This document shows positions 5,317 through 28,036 of a DNA stretch of 29,236 bases, piece after piece. Numbering within the stretch: position 1 is the stretch's first letter; the number at the start of each line of letters is the position of its first letter. Source of the stretch: an uncultured Tepidisphaeraceae bacterium. GTDB lineage: Bacteria > Planctomycetota > Phycisphaerae > Tepidisphaerales > Tepidisphaeraceae. The stretch is from the NCBI GenBank assembly GCA_964420285.1, contig CAYQTE010000062.1, forward strand, positions 1-29,236, written 5' to 3'. The position numbers were made by a program, and so were the translations under genes. The notes beneath the pieces are model-generated. The model worked only from the letters and a program-made list of their open reading frames with translations, made no database searches and was not told the DNA's origin.

Positions 5317-8200
<2,884 letters not shown>

Positions 8201-8353: not shown

Positions 8354-8466
8354 TTCGTTGGTGGCTATATCGGTAGGGTCACACCCGTTCCCATTCCGAA
8401 CACGGTCGTTAAGCCTGCCGAGCCGATGATACTGCTTCAGCGGGAAAGTAGGTCACTGCCAGCGTT
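8354..8466 (+). rRNA. rrf: 5S ribosomal RNA
   Basis: Conserved 5S core (CCCGTTCCCATTCCGAACACGG...GTAGGTCACTGCCAGCG). The terminal helix pairs CGTTGGTGG with CTGCCAGCG. Exact ends are uncertain by a few nt. Confidence 0.85.
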
Positions 8467-16665: not shown

Positions 16666-16904
16666 GTGTCAGTCCTCTATAGGTCTCGATGCACGAACGC
16701 GGGCTCGATATCCGATCGGGCCGGCTGGAATTCTACCGGATTGTACTACCCGGCAAAAGTGGACATTCCACCGGTTGTCCAGACCCGGTGAGCGTTACAA
16801 AGAACCCGAGATGTTGTAGTGCCCGGCCACTGTTGTTGTGCGGCCGGCGCGGTACGATATGGGCGCGGTTAGAAACCATATCGGATGACCCGAAGGAGGT
16901 CGTT

Positions 16905-19139
16905 ATGACGGGGTTGGCAACAATCGTGTTGGCGGCGCAGGCGGTGTTGGCGGATGCGGGCACGGACGCGATGGTCTTTATTGGGATTGGCCTGCTCGTA
17001 CTGATTGTGGCCGCGATCGTCGTCGTGGCGATTGTCGGGATTCGCTACATCCCCAACAATCGCGTCGGCATCGTGGAAAAGCTCTGGTCGCATCACGGCT
17101 CGGTCGGGCAGGGGCAGATCATCGCTCTGCACGGCGAAGCCGGTTATCAGGCCGATCTGCTCCGCGGCGGCGTGCATCTGGGTTTGCGCCCGTGGCAGTA
17201 TCGCATCCACAAAGTGCCGCTGGTCACGATACCACAGGGGAAGATCGGTTATGTCTACGCGCGCGACGGCCAATCGCTGGCGCCCAGCCAGACGCTGGGC
17301 CGCGTCGTCGATTCCAACAATTTCCAGGATGCCCGCAAATACCTGACCGGCGATCCGAACCTGTGCGGCCAGCGCGGCCGGCAACGCGCCATCCTGCGCG
17401 AAGGCGTCTATGCCATCAATCTGGCGATGTTCGTCGTTGTGACCGAGGACGCGATCTTCCGGCTGGATGTCAACGGCCGGCAGGAGTTGGCGACCGTCAT
17501 CGGCTGGCAGAAGGAACTGGCCGACGTGCATGGATTCGATCCGGTGCTGATCGGCGGAGCGATCCAGATTGCCGACCCGCTGAATCCCGGCAAGGCGATC
17601 ACGGTGGACAGCATCGGCATCGTGACGGTACAGGACGGCCCCAGCGTCGCCCCCGGCGAGATCATCGCGCCGTCGGTCGGAAACGACGCGGGCGATCCCA
17701 ATTATCACAACAATTTCCAGGATCCCGAAGCCTTCCTGCGGGCCGGCGGCCGGCGCGGGCGGCAGTATGTGCCGCTCACCGACGGAACCTATTTCATCAA
17801 CCGCTGGTTCGCGACCGTCGAGCCGATCGGGAAAACCGTCGTGCCCATCGGATACGTCGGCGTGGTGGTCAGCTATTACGGCCCGATCGGCACGGATGTG
17901 TCGGGAGATGCATTCCGGCACGGCGAGCGCGTGGCCCGCGGCGAGCGCGGCGTCTGGGAAAAGCCGCTGGGGCCGGGCAAGTATCCGTTCAACACCTTCG
18001 CCGGCACGATCATCTTCGTGCCGACAACCAACTTCGTGCTCAACTGGGTGACGGGCAAGACCGAATCGCATCGCTATGACGAGGGGCTGAATTCGGTGGA
18101 CCTGGTCACGCTCGACGGCTACGAGCCGAAGCTGCCGTTGTCGGTGGTGGTACACATCGACTACCAGCGGGCGCCCAACGTCATTCAGCGGTTTGGCGAT
18201 GTGAAGAAACTCATCACGCAGACGCTCGACCCGCTGCTCAGCGCCTATTTCCGCGACGTGGCGCATAAGAAGACGATGCTCGAACTTCTGCACAGCCGCG
18301 ATCAGATTCAGGCCGAGGCCAGGGCCGAGTTGCAAAGGCGGTTCCGGGAATTTGATATCGAATGCGTGGACGTTTTGATCGGCAAGGTGGACACGGCCGA
18401 GCCGGGTGGCAAGATCGAAGTGCTGCTCGATCAGCTTCGCCAGCGACAGCTCAGCATCGAACAGGTCGAGACGTTCGATCGGCAGCGCATCGCGGCTGAC
18501 AAATTGCGGACTCTCAGCGAGGCGCAGGCGATCGCGGCCAAGCAGACGGAATTGACCAATTCACAGGTCCAGATCAGCATTGCCGAAAACCAGGGCAATG
18601 CCGATTTGGCACGGGCGAGAAAACAGGCCGAACAGACGATCGTGGTGGCCGAGGCGGAATTGGCGCGATCGCGCCGTGCCGCCGAGCAGACGATCGTCAC
18701 CGCCCAGGCCGAAAGCCAGCAGCGCATGCTGGCGGGCAAGGGCGAAAGCACGCAGAAACTCCAGGTTGGCTTGGCCGAGGCGTCGGTGCTTCTGCGGAAG
18801 ATCAGCAGCTTCGGCGATCCGCGTTTGTATGCACTATCGCTGGTGTCCGAGCACCTGTCGCACAGCGCCCAGCCGCTGGTTCCCGAGCGCGTGTTCATGG
18901 CCGGATCGAGCAACGGCGACGGCGGCTCACAGGGCAATCCCGGCACGGGCATGCTGGGTATGCTCATCAGCCTCATGGTGGCGGAAAAATCCGGCTTCCA
19001 GCTTGGCAGCGCGGAGGACATGGCATCCATGAAGGAACTGGCCGACCGCATGACCCGCCAGGCGATGGACGCCATGACCGGCGACCCGGCGACTATCGAC
19101 GCAACCCTGGCCAAACCGGCCGCTATCGCCAAGTCGTGA
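16905..19139 (+). CDS. Flotillin-like SPFH/band-7 protein (YqiK family)
   Basis: Strong RBS AAGGAGG 7 nt before the ATG at 16905. N-terminal TM (MVFIGIGLLVLIVAAIVVVAIV), SPFH domain, and a C-terminal coiled-coil rich in EA/AEQ repeats (flotillin domain). The 72 codons upstream in the track ORF are not coding. Confidence 0.85.
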   Translation: MTGLATIVLAAQAVLADAGTDAMVFIGIGLLVLIVAAIVVVAIVGIRYIPNNRVGIVEKLWSHHGSVGQGQIIALHGEAGYQADLLRGGVHLGLRPWQYRIHKVPLVTIPQGKIGYVYARDGQSLAPSQTLGRVVDSNNFQDARKYLTGDPNLCGQRGRQRAILREGVYAINLAMFVVVTEDAIFRLDVNGRQELATVIGWQKELADVHGFDPVLIGGAIQIADPLNPGKAITVDSIGIVTVQDGPSVAPGEIIAPSVGNDAGDPNYHNNFQDPEAFLRAGGRRGRQYVPLTDGTYFINRWFATVEPIGKTVVPIGYVGVVVSYYGPIGTDVSGDAFRHGERVARGERGVWEKPLGPGKYPFNTFAGTIIFVPTTNFVLNWVTGKTESHRYDEGLNSVDLVTLDGYEPKLPLSVVVHIDYQRAPNVIQRFGDVKKLITQTLDPLLSAYFRDVAHKKTMLELLHSRDQIQAEARAELQRRFREFDIECVDVLIGKVDTAEPGGKIEVLLDQLRQRQLSIEQVETFDRQRIAADKLRTLSEAQAIAAKQTELTNSQVQISIAENQGNADLARARKQAEQTIVVAEAELARSRRAAEQTIVTAQAESQQRMLAGKGESTQKLQVGLAEASVLLRKISSFGDPRLYALSLVSEHLSHSAQPLVPERVFMAGSSNGDGGSQGNPGTGMLGMLISLMVAEKSGFQLGSAEDMASMKELADRMTRQAMDAMTGDPATIDATLAKPAAIAKS

Positions 19140-19579: not shown

Positions 19580-20134
19580 TTACGCCCGGCTCTGGTATTC
19601 GCCGGTTTCGGTGTTGATGCGGATGGTTTCGCCGATGACGATGAAGCCGGGGACGCGGGTTTTCAGGCCGGTTTCCAGTTCGGCTTCCTTGAGCTGATTG
19701 GTGGCCGTCGCGCCTTTGATGATGGGGGGCGTGTCGACAATTTTCAGATCGACGGTCTTGGGCATCTCGTAGCTGACGATCACGCCGTCGTGGAACATCG
19801 CCGTGAGCTGCGTGTTGGGCTTGAGGTAGAGGATGTCGTCGCCGAACAGTTCCTTGGGCACCGTCGTCTGGTCGTAGGTCTCGATGTCCATCAGAACATG
19901 GCCGTCGGCGTCGGAATAGAGGTATTCGACCTTCCGGCTGTCGAGGGTGGTGGTCTCGATATCGTCGGTGGCGCCGACGCGCTTGTCGATGATGGTGCCC
20001 TTGCCCACGTCGCGCAGCTTGAACTGCACCTTGGCGCGCAGGTTGCCCGGCGTGTTGTGATCGGCGTTGGTCACGACATACAGCTTGCCGTCCACGATGA
20101 CCGCCGTACCGCGTCGAATATCACTTGCCCGCAT
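19580..20134 (-). CDS. efp: Elongation factor P
   Basis: Full-length EF-P similarity, including the KOW-like N-terminus (VIVDGKLYVV) and OB domains. Confidence 0.9.
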   Translation of the reverse strand: MRASDIRRGTAVIVDGKLYVVTNADHNTPGNLRAKVQFKLRDVGKGTIIDKRVGATDDIETTTLDSRKVEYLYSDADGHVLMDIETYDQTTVPKELFGDDILYLKPNTQLTAMFHDGVIVSYEMPKTVDLKIVDTPPIIKGATATNQLKEAELETGLKTRVPGFIVIGETIRINTETGEYQSRA

Positions 20135-21531: not shown

Positions 21532-21643
21532 GACCCAATCCTCCACAAATGCCGTAATGGGAGACAAGATGTCCGAACGCGGACAGCCGCAGTAATGTTA
21601 GGCCGGGGATTTGGCGATTACGCAGGAAATTATTGGGCGGTGT

Positions 21644-22429
21644 TCAGCGGGCCTCCGTGGCCTTCACGGAGAGAGTATCGTCGTCTTTCAGGTGAATATC
21701 GAATGTGCCGTGGAAGGCCGGATGAGGCGAGTCATCGACATAGTCGATCGTGAGATGGGAAGAATCCTCGGGATCGGCGACGCCGGGTTTGAGCGAGACA
21801 CATGTGAGCACGCCGCTGTCCACATAGGGAAGGGAGTCGTCCTTAAGAATTACCGGCCCGCTCCCCATGAACGATGTGGGCTCAACAACCCAAGTATCAT
21901 TGTCAGGCTGGCATTCAAATCCTTGCAAATCGACGTCAGCGAGCGGAACCACAACCAATCGCCGATGTCCCGCCGGGCTCGTACGTTCGCCCATGAAGGC
22001 GATCGCGGTTCCCGGACAGGGAATGTAAACTTGCGGGTCCGTGCTCAAGAGGCCCCGAAACTCTCTGGGACAGTAGATGGCCGTTGGCGGCAGGGGCGGA
22101 ACCTTGCTTGGATCCTTCAAGAGGGCCGCATCGTACGATATCGCCTGCACGTAGTCCGGGTTGGTCGCCAGCAATTTTGCCGCCTTGGCCGGGTCGTCTT
22201 CTTCCAACACGGTCCCCTGCGGGGTGACGTGGTGCATGCACTCGTACAGCCAATACGCCCGCCGGGTGCGCAGCCAGAGTTCGGTTCGGAACATGAACAC
22301 CATGACGCCGACGGCCAGAGCCAGCGTCCACAGCACAATCCGGCGGACCAGTCGCCACCGCCGCCGGCGCGGGTTGGCCGGTTCGTAATCCAGGGGATGA
22401 ATAGGCCCGGAGGGACCGGCGTTTCCCAT
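21644..22429 (-). CDS. Single-pass membrane protein, tandem paralog A (unknown function)
   Basis: N-terminal cytoplasmic PANPRRRRWRLVRRIVLW, then a TM helix, then a periplasmic domain. 261 aa. C-terminal ~55 aa and N-terminal ~120 aa nearly identical to paralog B. Confidence 0.65.
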   Translation of the reverse strand: MGNAGPSGPIHPLDYEPANPRRRRWRLVRRIVLWTLALAVGVMVFMFRTELWLRTRRAYWLYECMHHVTPQGTVLEEDDPAKAAKLLATNPDYVQAISYDAALLKDPSKVPPLPPTAIYCPREFRGLLSTDPQVYIPCPGTAIAFMGERTSPAGHRRLVVVPLADVDLQGFECQPDNDTWVVEPTSFMGSGPVILKDDSLPYVDSGVLTCVSLKPGVADPEDSSHLTIDYVDDSPHPAFHGTFDIHLKDDDTLSVKATEAR

Positions 22430-22438
22430 GTCGCACCT

Positions 22439-23230
22439 TCAGTGGGCCTCGATGGCCTTCACGGAGAGAGTATCGTCGTCTTTCAGGTGAATATCGAATG
22501 TGCCGTGGAAGGCCGGATGAGGCGAGTCATCGACATAGTCGATCGTGAAATGGGAAGAATCCTTGGGATCGGCGACGCCAGGTTTGAGGGACACCGGAAC
22601 GAATCCCCAGCTATGCCCGAGCATGTAGGTGCCGAGGCCGGCGCTCCAATTCGCCGGTCCGCTTCCCAGAAACGAGGTCGGCGCGATGACCCAAGAAAAG
22701 TTGTCGGGTACGCTCTCAAAGTCATGCCAGTCAAGACCGGTATGCGGGATTACAATTAGCCGACGATGCCCGGCCGGGCTGGTCCGTTCGCCCATGAAGG
22801 CGATCGCGTCTCCGGGAAGAGGTGCGTAATGCTTCGGGTCCGTGCTCAAAAGACCCCGAAACGCCTTGGGACAATAGACGGCCGTTGGCGGCAGGGGCGG
22901 AACCTTGCTTGGATCCTTTAGGATGAGCGCATCGTACGATACCTCCTGCACATAATCCGGGTTGGCCGCCAGCAATTTTGCCGCCTTGGCCGGGTCGTCT
23001 TCTTCCAACACGGTCCCCGGCGGGGTGACGTGATGCATACACTCGTACAGCCAATACGCCCGCCGGGTACGTAGCCAGAGTTCGGTGCGGAACACGAACA
23101 CCGCACCCCCGACGGCCAGAACCAGTGCCCACAACACAATCCGCCGCACCAGTCGCCACCGGCGTCGCCGCGGGTTGGCCGGTTCGTAATTCAGCGGATG
23201 GATAGGCCCCGGTGGGCCGGCGTCTGTCAT
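22439..23230 (-). CDS. Single-pass membrane protein, tandem paralog B (unknown function)
   Basis: 263 aa. Its ATG is 3 nt after the M16 peptidase stop (TGA TTC ATG). Its stop is 9 nt before the paralog A start. Confidence 0.65.
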   Translation of the reverse strand: MTDAGPPGPIHPLNYEPANPRRRRWRLVRRIVLWALVLAVGGAVFVFRTELWLRTRRAYWLYECMHHVTPPGTVLEEDDPAKAAKLLAANPDYVQEVSYDALILKDPSKVPPLPPTAVYCPKAFRGLLSTDPKHYAPLPGDAIAFMGERTSPAGHRRLIVIPHTGLDWHDFESVPDNFSWVIAPTSFLGSGPANWSAGLGTYMLGHSWGFVPVSLKPGVADPKDSSHFTIDYVDDSPHPAFHGTFDIHLKDDDTLSVKAIEAH

Positions 23231-23233
23231 GAA

Positions 23234-24451
23234 TCACGGCCCCAGTGTGACGATGGTCATCGGGTCCATGGGGAACTGGTCCATCAGTTCGACCAGGGAC
23301 GCGGTTGTTACCGATTCCAGCGTGGCCATGTCCTGTTCCAGCGAGCGGTATTCGTGATTGTACACCCATTGGCTGCCGATCGAGCGCATGCGGCCCATGG
23401 GCACCTCGCCGGACAGGACAAGCTGGCTGGCGATCTTATTTCTGGCGCGGACGACCTCTTCATCGTTCAGATCGGTCCGGGCCTTTTTCAGTTCCGATAG
23501 GGCGATATCCAGGGCCTTTTCGCCGCGATCGGGTTCGGTGGTCAGGGCCAGATAGAAACTGCCGCAGCCGTCGTGCGGATAGAATCCGAATTCCGCGTCC
23601 TCGGCGATGGCGTTTTCGACCAGTGCCCAATAGAGCCGGCTGCCATCGGAATCGCCCAGCACGTCGGCCAGCACCTTGGCGGCGAAGCGGCGCTGGTCCT
23701 GGGCGCTGGGGCCGGGTGTCATCGCCATCGTGTAACGCCGATTCAGCTTGGCATCGACGATGTCCTTGCGCGCGGAATGGATCGACGGCGTGGATTGAAT
23801 GCGCGGAGCATCGGCCGGTTCCCAGTCGCCGCAATACTTCCTGGCCATCTCGACGACGCGATCGAATTCGAGCCGGCCGGTGACGGAGAGGACCATGTTG
23901 CCCGGCCCATAGCGGCGATGGAAATAGTCGGCCATCTCGTCGCGTTTCAGTCGCTCGACGGCGCTGGCGGCGCCCAGCACGCTCATCGCCAGCGGATGCC
24001 CGGCGAAATGCGCCTCCATTAGCGCCTCGTACAGCCGATGGCCCGGCTCGTCGAGATACATGGCGATCTCTTCGAGAATGACCTTCTTCTCCGTGTCAAA
24101 ATCCTTGTTGCGGATCGCCGGCCGGAGAAGATGCGACAGGTGCTCGATCGCCCGCTCCGTGAATTCCGGCAGGACATTGGCGTAATAGGCGGTCATTTCC
24201 TGGGTGGTGAAGGCGTTATAGCGGGCGCCGATCTCGTCGAAGATGCGGTTGACATCCTCCCAGGTGTACTTCGTGCTGCCCTTGAACATCATGTGTTCCA
24301 GGAAATGGCTCACGCCGTTGATCTGCATGGTCTCATCGCGCGAGCCGGTCTTGACGAACAGGCCGGCGGCGAACGAATAGCTGTCCGGGTTCTCCTCGGC
24401 CACAATGTCCAGCCCGTTGGCCAGCGTCGCTTGTTGGAATCGCAGGGGCAT
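23234..24451 (-). CDS. M16 family zinc metallopeptidase (active, HxxEH motif)
   Basis: Inverted zincin motif HFLEHMMFKG. Start at the MPLRFQQATLANGL ATG with GGAG 6 nt upstream. Confidence 0.85.
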   Translation of the reverse strand: MPLRFQQATLANGLDIVAEENPDSYSFAAGLFVKTGSRDETMQINGVSHFLEHMMFKGSTKYTWEDVNRIFDEIGARYNAFTTQEMTAYYANVLPEFTERAIEHLSHLLRPAIRNKDFDTEKKVILEEIAMYLDEPGHRLYEALMEAHFAGHPLAMSVLGAASAVERLKRDEMADYFHRRYGPGNMVLSVTGRLEFDRVVEMARKYCGDWEPADAPRIQSTPSIHSARKDIVDAKLNRRYTMAMTPGPSAQDQRRFAAKVLADVLGDSDGSRLYWALVENAIAEDAEFGFYPHDGCGSFYLALTTEPDRGEKALDIALSELKKARTDLNDEEVVRARNKIASQLVLSGEVPMGRMRSIGSQWVYNHEYRSLEQDMATLESVTTASLVELMDQFPMDPMTIVTLGP

Positions 24452-24488
24452 CTTGTCTCCGTGTGATTGTCTTGTCGCAAATCCAATC

Positions 24489-24554
24489 GTAGGGTCCGCA
24501 TCGCGGACCATCATTCGGTCGATCGAAAATCGCGGTCCGCGGTGCGGACCCTAC
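24489..24554. promoter_or_regulatory. 66-nt near-perfect palindrome between the two M16 cistrons
   Basis: Outer arms GTAGGGTCCGCA / TGCGGACCCTAC. Nested GGTCCGC-NNN-GCGGACC hairpins at 24493-24509 and 24534-24550. The 3' arm overlaps the stop codon of the upstream M16 gene. Confidence 0.6.
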
Positions 24555-25810
24555 CGCACTTCCGGCGGTTTGAGCGCATTGGGCCCGACGATGACGATGG
24601 TGAACGGGCCGGGACGGTGGCGGTTCAGATAGTTGTTCACCTGATCGACGGTAACGGCGTCGAGTTTTTCCTTGATCTCTTCGAGCGTGCGGATTCGGCC
24701 GCGCATAAAAAAGTCGTGGGCAATGGCGCCGCAGCGGGCGCTGGTGGATTCACCCTGCATGATCATGTTGGCCTTGACGCCGGTCTTGGCCCGGTCCAGT
24801 TCCGAGGCCGTGACGCCGTCGCACAGGCGGAAAAGTTCGGCGACAAAACAATCCAGCGTGGCCTGAGCCCGGTCGTTGCTGGTGCCGGCATATCCCATGA
24901 TGCTGCCGCTTTCTTTCAGCGACGTGTAACCCGCCCACACCGAATAGACCAGGGCACGCTTCTCGCGGATTTCCGTGAACAGCCGGCCGCTCATCCCGCC
25001 GGCCAGAATTTCCACCGCCAGGCGGACCGTGTAGTAATCGTCATCCGTTTCCTTCACGGATGGCCAGGCCAGGCCGATGTGGGTCTGCTCGCTCTTTTGC
25101 GGCTGATGAATAAACGAGACCGGCGGCGTGGGCTGTATCGGGACGTCTGTCGTGCTCCCGGCGAACGAACCAAAATGCGTCTCGACGGCCCGCCTCGCCT
25201 CGTCAAAATCAACCCGGCCCGCCATCGCCAAAATCGCGCCCCGCGCCACATATCGCGACTGGAAATCCCTCTTCGCCTCGGCCAGCGTCAGCGACTTCAG
25301 GTCGGCCACTTCACCCATCGGATTGCGGCCGTAGGGATAGGGATAATGCTTTTCCCGCAGCGTGATCAGGAGTTTTTGCCGGGGCTCATCCTCGATGCCG
25401 GCCAGATTTTGCAAGGCCAGATCGCGGGCCGCGTCGAAGCCGCTTTCGGGGAGCATCGGCCGGCGCACGATATCGGAGTAGACTCCCAGCGATTCCATGA
25501 CTCGCTCGGCCGGGGCGGCGGCGGAGAATCGCGTGTGATAGACACCGACGCTGCTGGATCGCTGCAAGCCGAGGAAGTCGAGATAGTCGGTCAATTGGCG
25601 GCTGTCGCGTTTTCCGGCCCCGCGCAGGACCAGTTCCGAAAGCACGGTGGCCGACCCGGACCGATGGGCCGGATCGCCCGCGCTGCCGGCCGGCAGGATC
25701 AGGGTCATCGCCGCCGACTGCACGCCCACCATCGTCTCGCACAGGAGCGTCAGGCCGTTGGGGAAGGTGTATTGATAGAACCGCTGGGTGGACGTTTGTT
25801 GATTGCTCAC
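24551..25810 (-). CDS. M16 family peptidase-like protein, probably non-catalytic (no HxxEH)
   Basis: M16 N-terminal pattern YTFPNGLTLL, but the HxxEH position reads SATVLSELVLRG. Probable GTG start at 25810. Confidence 0.78.
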   Translation of the reverse strand: MSNQQTSTQRFYQYTFPNGLTLLCETMVGVQSAAMTLILPAGSAGDPAHRSGSATVLSELVLRGAGKRDSRQLTDYLDFLGLQRSSSVGVYHTRFSAAAPAERVMESLGVYSDIVRRPMLPESGFDAARDLALQNLAGIEDEPRQKLLITLREKHYPYPYGRNPMGEVADLKSLTLAEAKRDFQSRYVARGAILAMAGRVDFDEARRAVETHFGSFAGSTTDVPIQPTPPVSFIHQPQKSEQTHIGLAWPSVKETDDDYYTVRLAVEILAGGMSGRLFTEIREKRALVYSVWAGYTSLKESGSIMGYAGTSNDRAQATLDCFVAELFRLCDGVTASELDRAKTGVKANMIMQGESTSARCGAIAHDFFMRGRIRTLEEIKEKLDAVTVDQVNNYLNRHRPGPFTIVIVGPNALKPPEVR

Positions 25811-25869
25811 AGGCCGGGATTATAGGCATTTCATCGGCGGACGCATCAGCGCGGAAGGGGATTGGTTCA

Positions 25870-26679
25870 TCACGGCATCGCCGGCGAGTCCGGCGGGGGA
25901 TCGATGGGAGTGGTCTTGACCCCGCGCGGCCGGAGGCTTTGGCAGCGGCGATAGAGGAGAATAAACACGGCCGGGCCAAAGGCCAGGAGCATGACGGCGG
26001 CGCCGGCGGCGATTCCTGTCAGGGTGATGACCGTCGCGCAACAGTCGCCTCGGTTGCGGACAATCACATGGGCCGATATGGCGACGAGCAATTCCAACAC
26101 GCTGCCGTTAATCAGGTATTCCTGCATGCGATAGGTGATCGAGAGCGGATCGCGCTGCCGGCCGGCCACGAGGAAGAAGACCGCCCATCCGATCCAGATC
26201 GCCACGGCCGTCGCCAGGGCTATCCAAATCCAGACGTCGGCAGGGCTGTTGTCTTTCTTCCATGCTGCGATGCTCGCCCATATGCCGGCATAGAAAAGCA
26301 GTGCGATCAGAAATCCGCCCGCAATCACGCCCGGCCACATCGAGCGTCGCGTGACCGGCCGGCGCGTCGCGACGCGCACGGGAATGAATAGCATCGCTGC
26401 CTCGCTCAAGACCATCGCCGCCACGATCGAAATCAGAAAGATCAACGTCGGTTTGTCATTCTCGTCGGTCAGTCCCATGCCCACCCAAACGACAAGCCCC
26501 GCCATTGCCAGCACCAGCAAGAGCCACAATCCGGCGATCCAGAACGCCCAGCGAGTCGCCTTTTCCGAGATGATCTCCCTCTGTCGCGGCGATATCCCCA
26601 ATCCCCACTGGCCGTGCGTCGGCGTCGCGTAATTCAGCACCGGCACAGGCGCATTGTTTGGTGTTGGTTCCCCGGCCAT
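25870..26679 (-). CDS. Multi-pass integral membrane protein (unknown function)
   Basis: At least 6 hydrophobic helices. GGGAGGA RBS 7 nt upstream of the ATG at 26679. The track ORF begins at TTG 26685. Confidence 0.6.
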   Translation of the reverse strand: MAGEPTPNNAPVPVLNYATPTHGQWGLGISPRQREIISEKATRWAFWIAGLWLLLVLAMAGLVVWVGMGLTDENDKPTLIFLISIVAAMVLSEAAMLFIPVRVATRRPVTRRSMWPGVIAGGFLIALLFYAGIWASIAAWKKDNSPADVWIWIALATAVAIWIGWAVFFLVAGRQRDPLSITYRMQEYLINGSVLELLVAISAHVIVRNRGDCCATVITLTGIAAGAAVMLLAFGPAVFILLYRRCQSLRPRGVKTTPIDPPPDSPAMP

Positions 26680-26722: not shown

Positions 26723-28036
26723 CTATTCGTACGTCAGCGGATTGATCAGCATCCCCGTGGCCAGCTTGGGCACGAAATAGGTGCTCTTCTGCGGCATCAC
26801 TTCGTTGGTCTTGCCCAAATCCTCCAGCGCCCGCAATGGCGTGGACTTGAGCAAGAACGCGATCTGAAACGTATTGCCATCCATTTGCGGCAGCACTTCG
26901 GCGGCATTGGCGGTATATCCCTTTTTCAATTCGCCAACCGCAAAATGCGGCGTCAGGATCTCCTCGACGAGATATCGCTGCAAGATCGCCACATCCAGCT
27001 TCCGCCAGGCCGGGCTGTGGTTCGGTTCGAGATTCTTCAGCATGTCCGGATCGCGCGGGCGGATCTCATACAGCTTTCGCGTGGCCGCATCGTACAGGCC
27101 CATCGTGTGCGGCGCGGTCTTGGGAAGATGCTCATCGGTGAATTCGACCAGCTTTTCGGCCGGCAGCGTTGCTTCGGCCACCTCGAATTGATCCGCGATC
27201 AACCGGATCAGCGACTCGACCGTGAATGACCTGAGTCCGCCGATGAGTCGATGCGTGGGAAGGATGAGCAGCCCGTCGTCCTGGAACGGGACCAGCACAA
27301 ACATGCAGAAATTGGCCGGATGATTGGCCGGCAGCGGCTTGCCGCCGTTGGCAGCCACCGCCTGCGCCTGGTATTCGACGGCCGTTGTGTAGCGATGGTG
27401 CCCGTCGGCGATGTAGATCGGCTTGTGGTTCAGTTGATCGATGACCTGGTTTTGAATCTGTGTGTCGCTGATGCTCCAGAGATCGTTGCGGACGCCATCG
27501 AGCGTGGCGGAAACTTCCGGCCGGCTGGCGTTGCGATAGAGGAGATTGTTCGCCTCACCGCGAGGGTCGTTGAAGAGGCCAAAGATCGGCGAGAGTTGCG
27601 CCCGCGTGGCGGTCATGAGCTTGAGCCGATCGACGATCGCCTCTTTGTAGGTTTTCTCATGGGGCACGACATCGCCAGCGCCGAAGGGCGTGATGCGAAC
27701 CAGGGCGACGAATCCGCGCCGATGAAATTCGCGATCGCCGACGGAATAGATCTGCGTGTATGGATAGAACGACGGCCGATGGTCCCGCTCGAGGATTCCC
27801 GCGCTCTGCCAGGCGCTGAAGGTGACGGCGGCGCGAGCGTAGGCCTCATCCGGCCCGACGGTCTTGGCCGGCAGATGCGGCAGATCGACGGCGACGATGT
27901 TGTTGGGACTGCGCGCGGTCAGAGCGGCTTTGCCGGCGGCGTCCAGAACATCGAACGGCGGGGCGATGAGCCGGGAAAGATCCAGATCCCGCGACCGCGA
28001 ATAGCGAAGTGCGGTAAACGGCCGAATTTGTGGCAA
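26723..28036 (-). CDS. DUF1015 family protein
   Basis: 437 aa with the hallmark motif IYIADGHHR and DUF1015-like overall length. Confidence 0.78.
   Translation of the reverse strand: MPQIRPFTALRYSRSRDLDLSRLIAPPFDVLDAAGKAALTARSPNNIVAVDLPHLPAKTVGPDEAYARAAVTFSAWQSAGILERDHRPSFYPYTQIYSVGDREFHRRGFVALVRITPFGAGDVVPHEKTYKEAIVDRLKLMTATRAQLSPIFGLFNDPRGEANNLLYRNASRPEVSATLDGVRNDLWSISDTQIQNQVIDQLNHKPIYIADGHHRYTTAVEYQAQAVAANGGKPLPANHPANFCMFVLVPFQDDGLLILPTHRLIGGLRSFTVESLIRLIADQFEVAEATLPAEKLVEFTDEHLPKTAPHTMGLYDAATRKLYEIRPRDPDMLKNLEPNHSPAWRKLDVAILQRYLVEEILTPHFAVGELKKGYTANAAEVLPQMDGNTFQIAFLLKSTPLRALEDLGKTNEVMPQKSTYFVPKLATGMLINPLTYE

What the first reader, a model, noticed from the sequence alone, without database searches (positions are those of the whole stretch)
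21644..26679. Tightly packed operon: membrane protein, inactive M16, active M16 and two duplicated membrane-anchored proteins
Five minus-strand genes have intercistronic gaps of 3 to 100 nt. A catalytic/non-catalytic M16 peptidase pair is typical of heterodimeric processing peptidases (for example PqqF/G-like, YmxG-type or RiPP leader peptidases). Here the pair is bracketed by a polytopic membrane protein upstream and two single-pass membrane proteins of unknown family downstream. The ATG of the first of these is only 3 nt after the active M16 stop. This arrangement suggests a dedicated processing, secretion or quality-control module. The duplicated proteins could be the substrates or regulators, like an anti-sigma factor. 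I cannot place them in a described pathway.
Basis: partly seen in the sequence, partly recalled or inferred. Interest (0 to 1): 0.6.

Follow-up and report, generated by a model that had tools for sequence, protein, structure and literature searches.

The report
Ordinary M16 peptidase pair with hitchhikers
The five genes are real and tightly packed, but only the two-subunit zinc peptidase is a conserved unit; the membrane-protein genes around it are recent, lineage-specific neighbours from two uncharacterised families, not a dedicated processing module.

Summary
Five minus-strand genes have gaps of 59, 99, 3 and 9 nt: a 6-TM membrane protein, an M16 subunit without HxxEH, an M16 subunit with HFLEH, and two 77%-identical single-pass membrane proteins.

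The M16 pair is a standard M16B heterodimer. The two subunits match chains A and B of the solved Thermus TTHA1264/TTHA1265 complex (E 1e-90 and 5e-85), with complementary catalytic and R/Y motifs.

- 10 orthologous M16 loci have readable downstream DNA, and none carries a paralog.
- 80 genome loci carry the membrane protein, and none has an M16 gene.
- 9 independent contexts of paralog-family members lack M16.
- Relatives often have unrelated genes (Uma2, IVP, PD-(D/E)XK, BNR) inserted between the two M16 genes.
- Both peptidase subunits lack signal peptides, while the bulk of each paralog is predicted to lie outside the cytoplasm.

The paralogs belong to a large, unannotated family: 3,483 cluster representatives, no Pfam match and no fold match. 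Members share a conserved N-terminal L-x-Y motif and polar motifs. The local array varies in copy number (2 versus 3) and is a recombination mosaic under purifying selection.

Overall this is an ordinary peptidase operon with neighbours of unknown function, and interest is low to moderate.

The parts
25870..26679 (-). Polytopic membrane protein (269 aa from the ATG at 26679), uncharacterised family, with the N-terminal motif PVLNYATP
24551..25810 (-). Non-catalytic M16B subunit (419 aa), TTHA1265-like
   Evidence: Peptidase_M16 plus M16_C. No HxxEH, but the R/Y pair REKRALVY is retained. Best PDB matches are 5HXK and 7V4Y chain B, E 3e-86 and 5e-85. Directly upstream of M16a in 15 of 17 orthologous loci that have upstream sequence.
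24452..24550 (-). M16i-M16a spacer with two palindromes (24493-24509 and 24534-24550) that fold into one long hairpin starting at the M16i stop codon
   Evidence: The pattern occurs only here in the window. RNA fold -53.5 kcal/mol, z -4.65, 0 of 200 shuffles fold as well. Identical in L001 and L011 but absent from the 88% relative L097, so it is strain-specific.
23234..24451 (-). Catalytic M16B subunit (405 aa), TTHA1264-like
   Evidence: Peptidase_M16 plus M16_C. HFLEH at 49-53 and the distal ILEEI; no R/Y pair; no signal peptide. Best PDB matches are 3EOQ and 7V4Y chain A, E 1.5e-92 and 1e-90. The GGAG-ATG start at 24451 is conserved in L097.
22439..23230 (-). Paralog A (263 aa): single-pass membrane protein of a large unannotated family; its ATG is 3 nt after the M16a stop
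21644..22429 (-). Paralog B (261 aa), tandem copy 77% identical to A; starts 9 nt after the A stop, with an AGGTG SD-like sequence
   Evidence: Mosaic identity to A: the last 45 codons are 97-100% identical at DNA level, while the centre is 52-65% identical with saturated dS.
21570..21585 (-). Weak terminator-like hairpin after paralog B; a possible 3' end of the transcription unit
   Evidence: Consensus scan only. The surrounding fold is no more stable than shuffles, z 0.23, so support is weak.

Best explanation
The conserved functional unit is only the two middle genes. They encode a cytoplasmic heterodimeric M16B zinc peptidase of the Thermus TTHA1264/TTHA1265 type. M16a supplies the HxxEH zinc site. 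M16i supplies the R/Y substrate-binding pair that closes the clam-shell chamber. The most likely role is the general one proposed for prokaryotic M16B enzymes, degrading or trimming oligopeptides in the cytoplasm.

The genes around the pair are lineage-specific neighbours. Upstream lies a 6-TM protein from a family found in Planctomycetota, Verrucomicrobiota and Acidobacteriota, which is never M16-linked elsewhere. Downstream lies a tandem array of a large uncharacterised family. Its members are probably single-pass proteins with the N-terminus inside. They have a cytoplasmic L-x-Y-x-x-P tail, an Arg-rich stretch, one TM helix and a ~200-aa alpha/beta ectodomain with a conserved polar constellation (E148, R149, R157, D221, D224, H227, D246, D251). 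I infer that this ectodomain is a binding or hydrolytic site facing the envelope.

In this population the array has landed directly behind M16a, with a 3-nt gap that suggests translational coupling, so it probably rides on the peptidase transcript. The array changes by recombination between its conserved 5' and 3' ends: 2 versus 3 copies, mosaic tracts and a frameshifted copy.

Shown: gene identities, motifs, non-conservation of the neighbourhood, array mosaicism and purifying selection. Inferred: heterodimer formation, cytoplasmic location, topology, co-transcription and the functions of the flanking proteins.
For: M16 pair:
- Both domains are present in both proteins.
- Each subunit's best solved relative is a different chain of the same heterodimer, 7V4Y.
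- HFLEH is only in M16a and REKRALVY only in M16i; neither has a signal peptide.
- The M16i-to-M16a order is kept in 15 of 17 orthologous loci.
- A review states that physiological substrates of TTHA1264/65 are unknown and that prokaryotic M16B enzymes fit a 'peptidasome' role (PMC12731061).

Non-conserved flanks:
- 0 of 80 membrane-protein loci have M16, DUF1015 or a paralog within 10 kb. The tblastn used detects even the 23% identity between M16a and M16i.
- 0 of 80 M16a loci hold a paralog-family member by tblastn or HMM, and only L097 holds the membrane protein.
- Downstream of M16a the orthologs have unrelated, often convergent genes.
- Unrelated genes (Uma2, 23S_rRNA_IVP, PDDEXK_3, BNR) sit between M16i and M16a in L099, L139, L143, L113, L107 and L121.
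- Nine non-clade contexts of the paralog family lack M16 and share no neighbour.
- The upstream DUF1015 has been proposed to be a serine-metabolism enzyme, SerBK (bioRxiv 10.1101/2024.10.14.618325).

Array dynamics:
- L011 has a 100% identical M16a but three copies behind the same TGATTCATG junction, and the third is frameshifted.
- Mosaic identity and clustered differences are seen between copies and strains.
- dN/dS is 0.1-0.5.

Family definition.
Against: - In this population the 3-nt and 9-nt gaps tie paralog expression to M16a, so a local functional link cannot be excluded.
- Both flanking membrane-protein families carry the same rare N-terminal L-x-Y-x-x-P motif. Among 374 ORFs with an early TM helix in 2 Mb, only these two families have it. 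That hints at a shared cytoplasmic partner.
- The closest relative L097 (88%) ends inside M16a, so it is unknown how far back the M16-paralog junction goes.
- Absence of gene linkage elsewhere does not exclude action in trans.
- No expression or biochemical data exist.
- Metagenome assembly of near-identical tandem repeats can create artificial mosaics.
Confidence: 0.7

Rival explanations
1. One reading: a dedicated processing or quality-control module. The M16 heterodimer would cleave, mature or regulate the two paralogs (and perhaps the upstream membrane protein), which would be its substrates or regulators.
For: Tight spacing and an ATG 3 nt after the M16a stop. The same junction occurs in strains L001 and L011. 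Both flanking families share an N-terminal L-x-Y-x-x-P motif followed by Arg-rich residues. From my own knowledge, that tail loosely recalls the basic presequences preferred by MPP-type M16B enzymes.
Against: The linkage is confined to one population: 0/10, 0/80, 0/80 and 0/9 in the tests. The M16 subunits lack signal peptides, while the paralog bulk domain is predicted to lie outside. Relatives tolerate unrelated insertions inside the M16 pair.
Confidence: 0.1
2. The paralogs are anti-sigma-factor-like or other transmembrane signalling proteins, and the M16 pair acts as their site-specific protease.
For: They have single-pass topology with a short cytoplasmic tail and a larger outside domain.
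Against: No sigma factor gene lies in the cluster; the adjacent genes are DUF1015, an esterase and EF-P. No ECF sigma is adjacent in eight of the nine other contexts; L010 has a sigma-70-type gene about 4 kb away, not adjacent. No anti-sigma domain is detected in Pfam or NCBIfam. The cytoplasmic tail is only about 25 residues, too short for a sigma-binding domain.
Confidence: 0.04
3. The M16 pair is a pathway-specific peptidase: a RiPP or PQQ leader peptidase (AlbE/F or PqqF/G type), or the EF-P-modification-associated YfmF/YfmH pair, given that EF-P lies 3 kb downstream.
For: There are weak NCBIfam hits to YfmH, YfmF and PqqF, and EF-P lies at 19580-20134 on the same strand.
Against: Scores are far below the curated cutoffs: 111 versus 250, 62 versus 285, and 75 versus 320. 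EF-P is absent from all 80 M16a loci. This EF-P has Asn31, not Lys, at the modified loop tip. No precursor peptide, radical-SAM or pqq genes lie among the neighbours.
Confidence: 0.02
4. The paralog array is a diversifying surface or immunity locus, such as phage-receptor masking or toxin immunity, and its position behind M16a is irrelevant to its function.
For: Copy number varies between near-identical strains, and the copies have a variable central cassette with homogenised ends. Some distant homologs sit among toxin-antitoxin genes in L004 and L013.
Against: dN/dS is below 1 everywhere, so no positive selection is detected. There are no PADLOC or PHROG hits and no members in IMG/VR. Most family members are single-copy, stand-alone genes in housekeeping surroundings.
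Confidence: 0.1

Closest known systems
Thermus thermophilus TTHA1264/TTHA1265 M16B heterodimer (PDB 7V4Y, 3EOQ, 5HXK)
   Same: Two adjacent genes of about 410 aa each. One subunit has HFLEH plus a distal Glu, and the other lacks it. The subunits match at E 1e-90 and 5e-85 to the respective chains. The R/Y pair lies in the non-catalytic subunit.
   Different: About 300 bits of similarity does not establish orthology. Here there is a 99-nt spacer with a strain-specific hairpin, plus lineage-specific membrane-protein neighbours. The physiological substrate is unknown for both (PMC12731061).
Sphingomonas sp. A1 SPH2681/SPH2682 and Bacillus halodurans BH2405 (M16B; PDB 3AMJ, 3AMI, 3HDI)
   Same: The same clam-shell M16B family; weaker matches at E 1e-35 to 1e-39. 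SPH2681/2682 is also an active/inactive heterodimer.
   Different: More distant in sequence. BH2405 is a homodimer with two active sites.
Mitochondrial processing peptidase alpha/beta
   Same: An M16B heterodimer with one catalytic subunit. M16a matches MPP-beta at E 4e-34.
   Different: According to the review, MPP-alpha uses a glycine-rich loop instead of the R/Y pair, whereas M16i here keeps R/Y. There is no evidence here for presequence processing.
Bacillus YfmF/YfmH (EF-P 5-aminopentanol-associated M16 pair) and PqqF
   Same: Generic similarity in the M16 domains.
   Different: Far below the curated cutoffs. The EF-P linkage is not conserved, and this EF-P lacks the Lys at the modified position.

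Membership tests
M16B heterodimeric peptidase (TTHA1264/1265 type) | Both subunits carry the Peptidase_M16 (N) and Peptidase_M16_C domains at about 400-450 aa | tested here: met
   both domains are above the gathering score in both proteins (419 and 405 aa).
M16B heterodimeric peptidase (TTHA1264/1265 type) | HxxEH zinc motif plus a distal Glu in exactly one subunit | tested here: met
   HFLEH at 49-53 and ILEEI about 70 residues downstream in M16a; there is no HxxEH in M16i (ATVLSEL at the aligned place).
M16B heterodimeric peptidase (TTHA1264/1265 type) | R/Y substrate-binding pair supplied by the non-catalytic subunit | tested here: met
   M16i REKRALVY aligns to TTHA1265 REKRGLVY. M16a has VENAIAE at that place.
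M16B heterodimeric peptidase (TTHA1264/1265 type) | The two subunits are encoded by neighbouring genes and each matches a different chain of a solved heterodimer | tested here: met
   7V4Y_A at 1e-90 and 7V4Y_B at 5e-85. The pair is conserved in 15 of 17 orthologous loci.
M16B heterodimeric peptidase (TTHA1264/1265 type) | Stable heterodimer with zinc-dependent peptidase activity | not testable with these tools
   Needs co-expression, SEC-MALS and peptide cleavage assays.
YfmF/YfmH EF-P 5-aminopentanol-associated pair (NF047422 / NF047421) | Score above the NCBIfam equivalog cutoff | tested here: not met
   61.9 versus 285 bits, and 111 versus 250 bits.
YfmF/YfmH EF-P 5-aminopentanol-associated pair (NF047422 / NF047421) | An EF-P with a modifiable Lys at the loop tip, and conserved linkage to it | tested here: not met
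   Asn31 aligns to the tip Lys of solved EF-Ps. EF-P is in 0 of 80 M16a loci.
PqqF (TIGR02110) / RiPP leader peptidase (AlbE/AlbF type) | Family score above cutoff, with precursor and maturation genes in the cluster | tested here: not met
   74.8 versus 320 bits. The neighbours are DUF1015, a membrane protein, an esterase and EF-P; no radical-SAM or pqq genes are adjacent.
Anti-sigma factor (for the paralogs) | Recognisable anti-sigma domain and an adjacent ECF sigma gene | tested here: not met
   no such domain; no sigma gene lies in the cluster or adjacent to family members elsewhere.
Any described protein family or fold (for the paralogs) | Significant match in Pfam, NCBIfam, PADLOC, PHROGs, PDB sequences or PDB folds | tested here: not met

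The most novel reading that the evidence does not exclude
The rare N-terminal tail shared by both flanking membrane-protein families (L-x-Y-x-x-P followed by an Arg-rich stretch just before the first TM helix) could be a presequence-like or degron-like signal read by the cytoplasmic MPP-like M16B heterodimer. In this lineage the cluster would then be a protease together with its membrane-protein clients, which would give a first physiological substrate class for TTHA1264/65-type bacterial M16B enzymes.
Probability: 0.06. Interest if true: 0.65.

Novelty: new member of a known kind. Interest (0 to 1): 0.25.

Why it matters
There is little here for peptidase biology. The pair is one more TTHA1264/65-type M16B heterodimer, and its neighbourhood gives no reliable clue to the still-unknown physiological substrates of these enzymes. 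The result is mainly a caution that very tight gene spacing in a single genome is not evidence of a functional module.

One by-product is modestly useful. The paralogs define a large family (about 3,500 clusters at 50% identity) that is not in Pfam or NCBIfam and has no fold match in the PDB libraries searched. It has a strongly conserved cytoplasmic L-x-Y motif and a conserved polar site, which makes it a candidate for a new domain-family entry and for experimental study in Planctomycetota-like bacteria.

Tried and rejected
- **Paralog family size.** The word-indexed homology search found only 21 relatives, and I first took the family to be tiny. The exhaustive profile search corrected this to 3,483.
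- **Defence or phage link.** PADLOC, PHROGs and IMG/VR were all negative.
- **EF-P/YfmFH lead.** Rejected. A literature search for YfmH/YfmF with EF-P found no papers in the library.
- **Positive selection on the variable cassette.** Not seen, though dS is saturated there, so the test is weak.
- **Spacer hairpin as a conserved regulatory element.** Rejected, because it is absent from L097. Rfam found no known RNA in the cluster.
- **Terminator after paralog B.** It is a consensus match only, and the fold is no better than shuffles.
- **Exact look-up of paralog A.** Not on record.
- **CU044_5270 NCBIfam hit.** At E 0.009 it covers only the Arg-rich/TM segment, so I dismissed it.


Full report
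**1. Observation**

The five minus-strand ORFs are present as described:
- a membrane protein at 25870-26679;
- an M16 protein without HxxEH at 24551-25810 (M16i);
- an M16 protein with HFLEH at 23234-24451 (M16a);
- two paralogs at 22439-23230 (parA) and 21644-22429 (parB).

The gaps are 59, 99, 3 and 9 nt. The 99-nt value assumes that M16a starts at the GGAG-ATG at 24451. That start and its SD are conserved in the 88% relative L097, whereas the upstream in-frame ATG at 24514 lies inside a strain-specific hairpin.

Pfam finds both M16 domains in the two middle proteins and nothing in the other three. parA and parB are 77% identical. The same-strand run is longer than the finding. DUF1015 (26723-28036) lies 43 nt upstream, and an esterase and EF-P follow downstream.

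**2. The M16 pair**

M16a's best solved relatives are 3EOQ and 7V4Y chain A (E 1.5e-92 and 1e-90). M16i's are 5HXK and 7V4Y chain B (3e-86 and 5e-85). These are the two chains of the Thermus thermophilus TTHA1264/TTHA1265 heterodimer. A 2025 review describes it as a stable M16B heterodimer with no known physiological function or substrate (PMC12731061).

The motifs are complementary. HFLEH49-53 and the distal ILEEI are only in M16a. The R/Y pair (REKRALVY, aligned to TTHA1265 REKRGLVY) is only in M16i. Neither N-terminus has a hydrophobic signal-like segment, so I infer that the enzyme is cytoplasmic.

The hits to YfmF/YfmH and PqqF are generic M16 similarity, far below the curated cutoffs.

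**3. Is the neighbourhood conserved?**

I tested this from each side.

(a) *From the paralogs.*
- The nearly identical strains L001, L002 and L003 have the same arrangement.
- L011 and L012 are also near-identical (M16a 100% at the protein level) but have three copies behind the same TGATTCATG junction.
- Every homolog at or below about 45% identity that sits on a readable contig lies elsewhere. Its neighbours include ParE and PIN toxin-antitoxin genes, MMPL and PGK, PGK alone, TPR proteins, an AP endonuclease, and an aldo-keto reductase.
- Three further diverse members also lie elsewhere, next to IF3/L35/L20, a hydrolase with a histidine phosphatase, and GFO_IDH with GT87.
- That makes nine independent contexts. 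None has an M16 gene, and no neighbour recurs across them except PGK in two related loci.

(b) *From the membrane protein.* I fetched 80 species-genome loci from Tepidisphaeraceae, Phycisphaerae, Verrucomicrobiota and Acidobacteriota, at up to 43% identity. None has M16, DUF1015 or a paralog within 10 kb. The tblastn used is sensitive enough to detect the 23% identity between M16a and M16i.

(c) *From M16a.*
- I fetched 80 metagenomic loci at 41-88% identity.
- M16i is directly upstream in 15 of 17 orthologous loci (at least 66% identity) that have upstream sequence.
- The membrane protein occurs only in L097.
- DUF1015 occurs only in L097, L105 and L108.
- Paralogs, the esterase and EF-P occur in none.
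- Ten orthologous loci have at least 800 nt downstream of M16a. All carry unrelated, often convergent genes there.
- In six relatives, unrelated genes sit between M16i and M16a: Uma2 in L099, L139 and L143; a 23S-rRNA-IVS protein in L113; a PD-(D/E)XK fragment in L107; and a BNR protein in L121. The locus clearly tolerates insertions.

DUF1015 has recently been proposed to be a serine kinase/phosphatase substitute, SerBK (bioRxiv 10.1101/2024.10.14.618325), which has nothing to do with proteolysis.

**4. The paralog family**

The word-indexed search found only 21 relatives. The exhaustive profile search found 3,483 cluster representatives at E<=1e-3 and 2,458 at E<=1e-10. Most are 230-300 aa, and a few are double length.

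No member I examined has a match in any library:
- Pfam.
- NCBIfam.
- PADLOC.
- PHROGs.
- IMG/VR: none found.

Conservation across 145 diverse members:

| Feature | Conservation |
|---|---|
| N-terminal L-x-Y motif | L13 77%, Y15 88% |
| Early TM helix after an Arg-rich stretch | 124 of 145 members |
| N-side flank more positive than C-side | 92 of 124 members |
| Cys just after the TM helix | C64 93% |
| Polar motif F..ER.SP.G.RRLV | G154 97%, R157 93% |
| Polar motif G..DP.D.SHFTI | D221 98%, D224 95%, H227 91% |
| Polar motif D..L.DDD | D246 93% |

I infer an N-in single-pass protein with an extracytoplasmic alpha/beta domain that carries a conserved polar site. The function is unknown.

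**5. Array dynamics**

parA and parB are a mosaic:
- The last 45 codons are 97-100% identical at DNA level, including synonymous sites.
- Codons 61-90 are 95-97% identical.
- Codons 150-215 are 52-65% identical, with saturated dS.

dN/dS is 0.1-0.5 wherever it can be measured. Both copies are therefore under purifying selection, and there is no sign of positive selection.

Comparisons between strains show the same patchwork:
- Window parA is 100% identical to L011 copy 2 over nt 270-790, but only 80-95% identical over the first 270 nt.
- Window parA differs from L001 parA by 13 substitutions, all clustered in nt 654-741, although every other gene is identical.
- L011 copy 3 is frameshifted.

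This pattern fits unequal crossing-over and gene conversion through the conserved ends. One caveat is that metagenome assemblers can also produce such mosaics.

**6. Other features**

The M16i-M16a spacer folds into a 21-bp-class hairpin (-53.5 kcal/mol, z -4.65). It is built from two GGTCCGC-N3-GCGGACC palindromes found nowhere else in the window. It is absent from L097, so it is not a conserved regulator.

No sigma-70-like promoter is predicted inside the cluster. Only a weak terminator-like hairpin follows parB. Rfam finds nothing in the cluster.

**7. A residual link**

Both flanking membrane-protein families carry an N-terminal L-x-Y-x-x-P motif: PVLNYATP in the membrane protein and PLNYEPANP in the paralogs. 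Among 374 ORFs with an early TM helix in the 2 Mb I sampled, only these two families have it. This is the one observation that could connect them to each other, or to a common cytoplasmic partner. It underlies the low-probability novel reading.

**8. Verdict**

The cluster is an ordinary TTHA1264/65-type M16B peptidase gene pair with lineage-specific neighbours. The dedicated-module interpretation is not supported, although the heterodimer inference is. The main by-product is the definition of a large, unannotated membrane-protein family.

Noticed in passing
window 5317-8199 (+) and 8357-8464 (+): A complete 23S rRNA and a 5S rRNA gene are present, but no 16S rRNA gene was found anywhere in the 29-kb window. 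This indicates a 16S-unlinked rRNA arrangement. From my own knowledge, that is common in Planctomycetota.
   Followed up: no
window 19580-20134 (-): This EF-P has the loop sequence PGNLRA. Asn31 aligns to the tip Lys that is modified in solved EF-Ps (PGKGSA), and an Arg lies two residues later. It is therefore neither a Lys-type EF-P nor one with a tip Arg at the modified position.
   Followed up: partly
window 24452-24550 (-): The M16i-M16a spacer holds two copies of the palindrome GGTCCGC-N3-GCGGACC, which pair into one very stable hairpin (-53.5 kcal/mol, z -4.65) overlapping the M16i stop codon. It is identical in strains L001 and L011 and absent in the 88% relative L097. It could be a footprint of a small mobile element or an mRNA-stability element.
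   Followed up: partly
L099:709-1347, L139:1590-2210, L143:1278-1895, L113:3694-4077, L107:7707-7949, L121:2560-3690: In orthologous loci, unrelated genes (Uma2 endonuclease, 23S-rRNA-IVS/bAvd-like protein, a PD-(D/E)XK fragment, a BNR-repeat protein) are inserted between the two M16 subunit genes. The intersubunit spacer looks like an insertion hot spot.
   Followed up: partly
window 26635-26658 (membrane protein residues 8-15 region) and 23180-23200 (parA residues 11-17); family-wide in A1: Two otherwise unrelated membrane-protein families share an N-terminal cytoplasmic L-x-Y-x-x-P motif ahead of the first TM helix. Y15 is conserved in 88% of 145 paralog-family members. The motif is also seen in 6 of 32 membrane-family members and in no other early-TM ORF in 2 Mb. 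Its meaning is unknown.
   Followed up: partly
L011:10355-11063 and L013:360-964: The third paralog copy in L011 has a 1-base frameshift after AFMGE. In the distant locus L013, partial family fragments lie just upstream of the intact gene. Tandem duplication and decay therefore recur in this family.
   Followed up: partly
P0184 (480 aa), P0196 (469 aa), P0220 (482 aa): Some family members are double length and match the profile in two stretches. They may be fusions of tandem copies.
   Followed up: no
window 25870-26679 (-); alignment A2: The membrane-protein family has an invariant motif, S..ELLVA...H...R.R..CCA, in its fifth and sixth helices, with conserved E, H, two R and a Cys-Cys pair. 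This suggests a catalytic or metal-binding site inside the membrane. Source annotations such as BioY or NuoK look spurious.
   Followed up: no
window 16689-19139 (+): An 816-aa protein carries an SPFH/Band 7 domain. The ORF as listed begins well upstream of the 744-aa gene call in the near-identical contig L001, so the true start is probably later.
   Followed up: no
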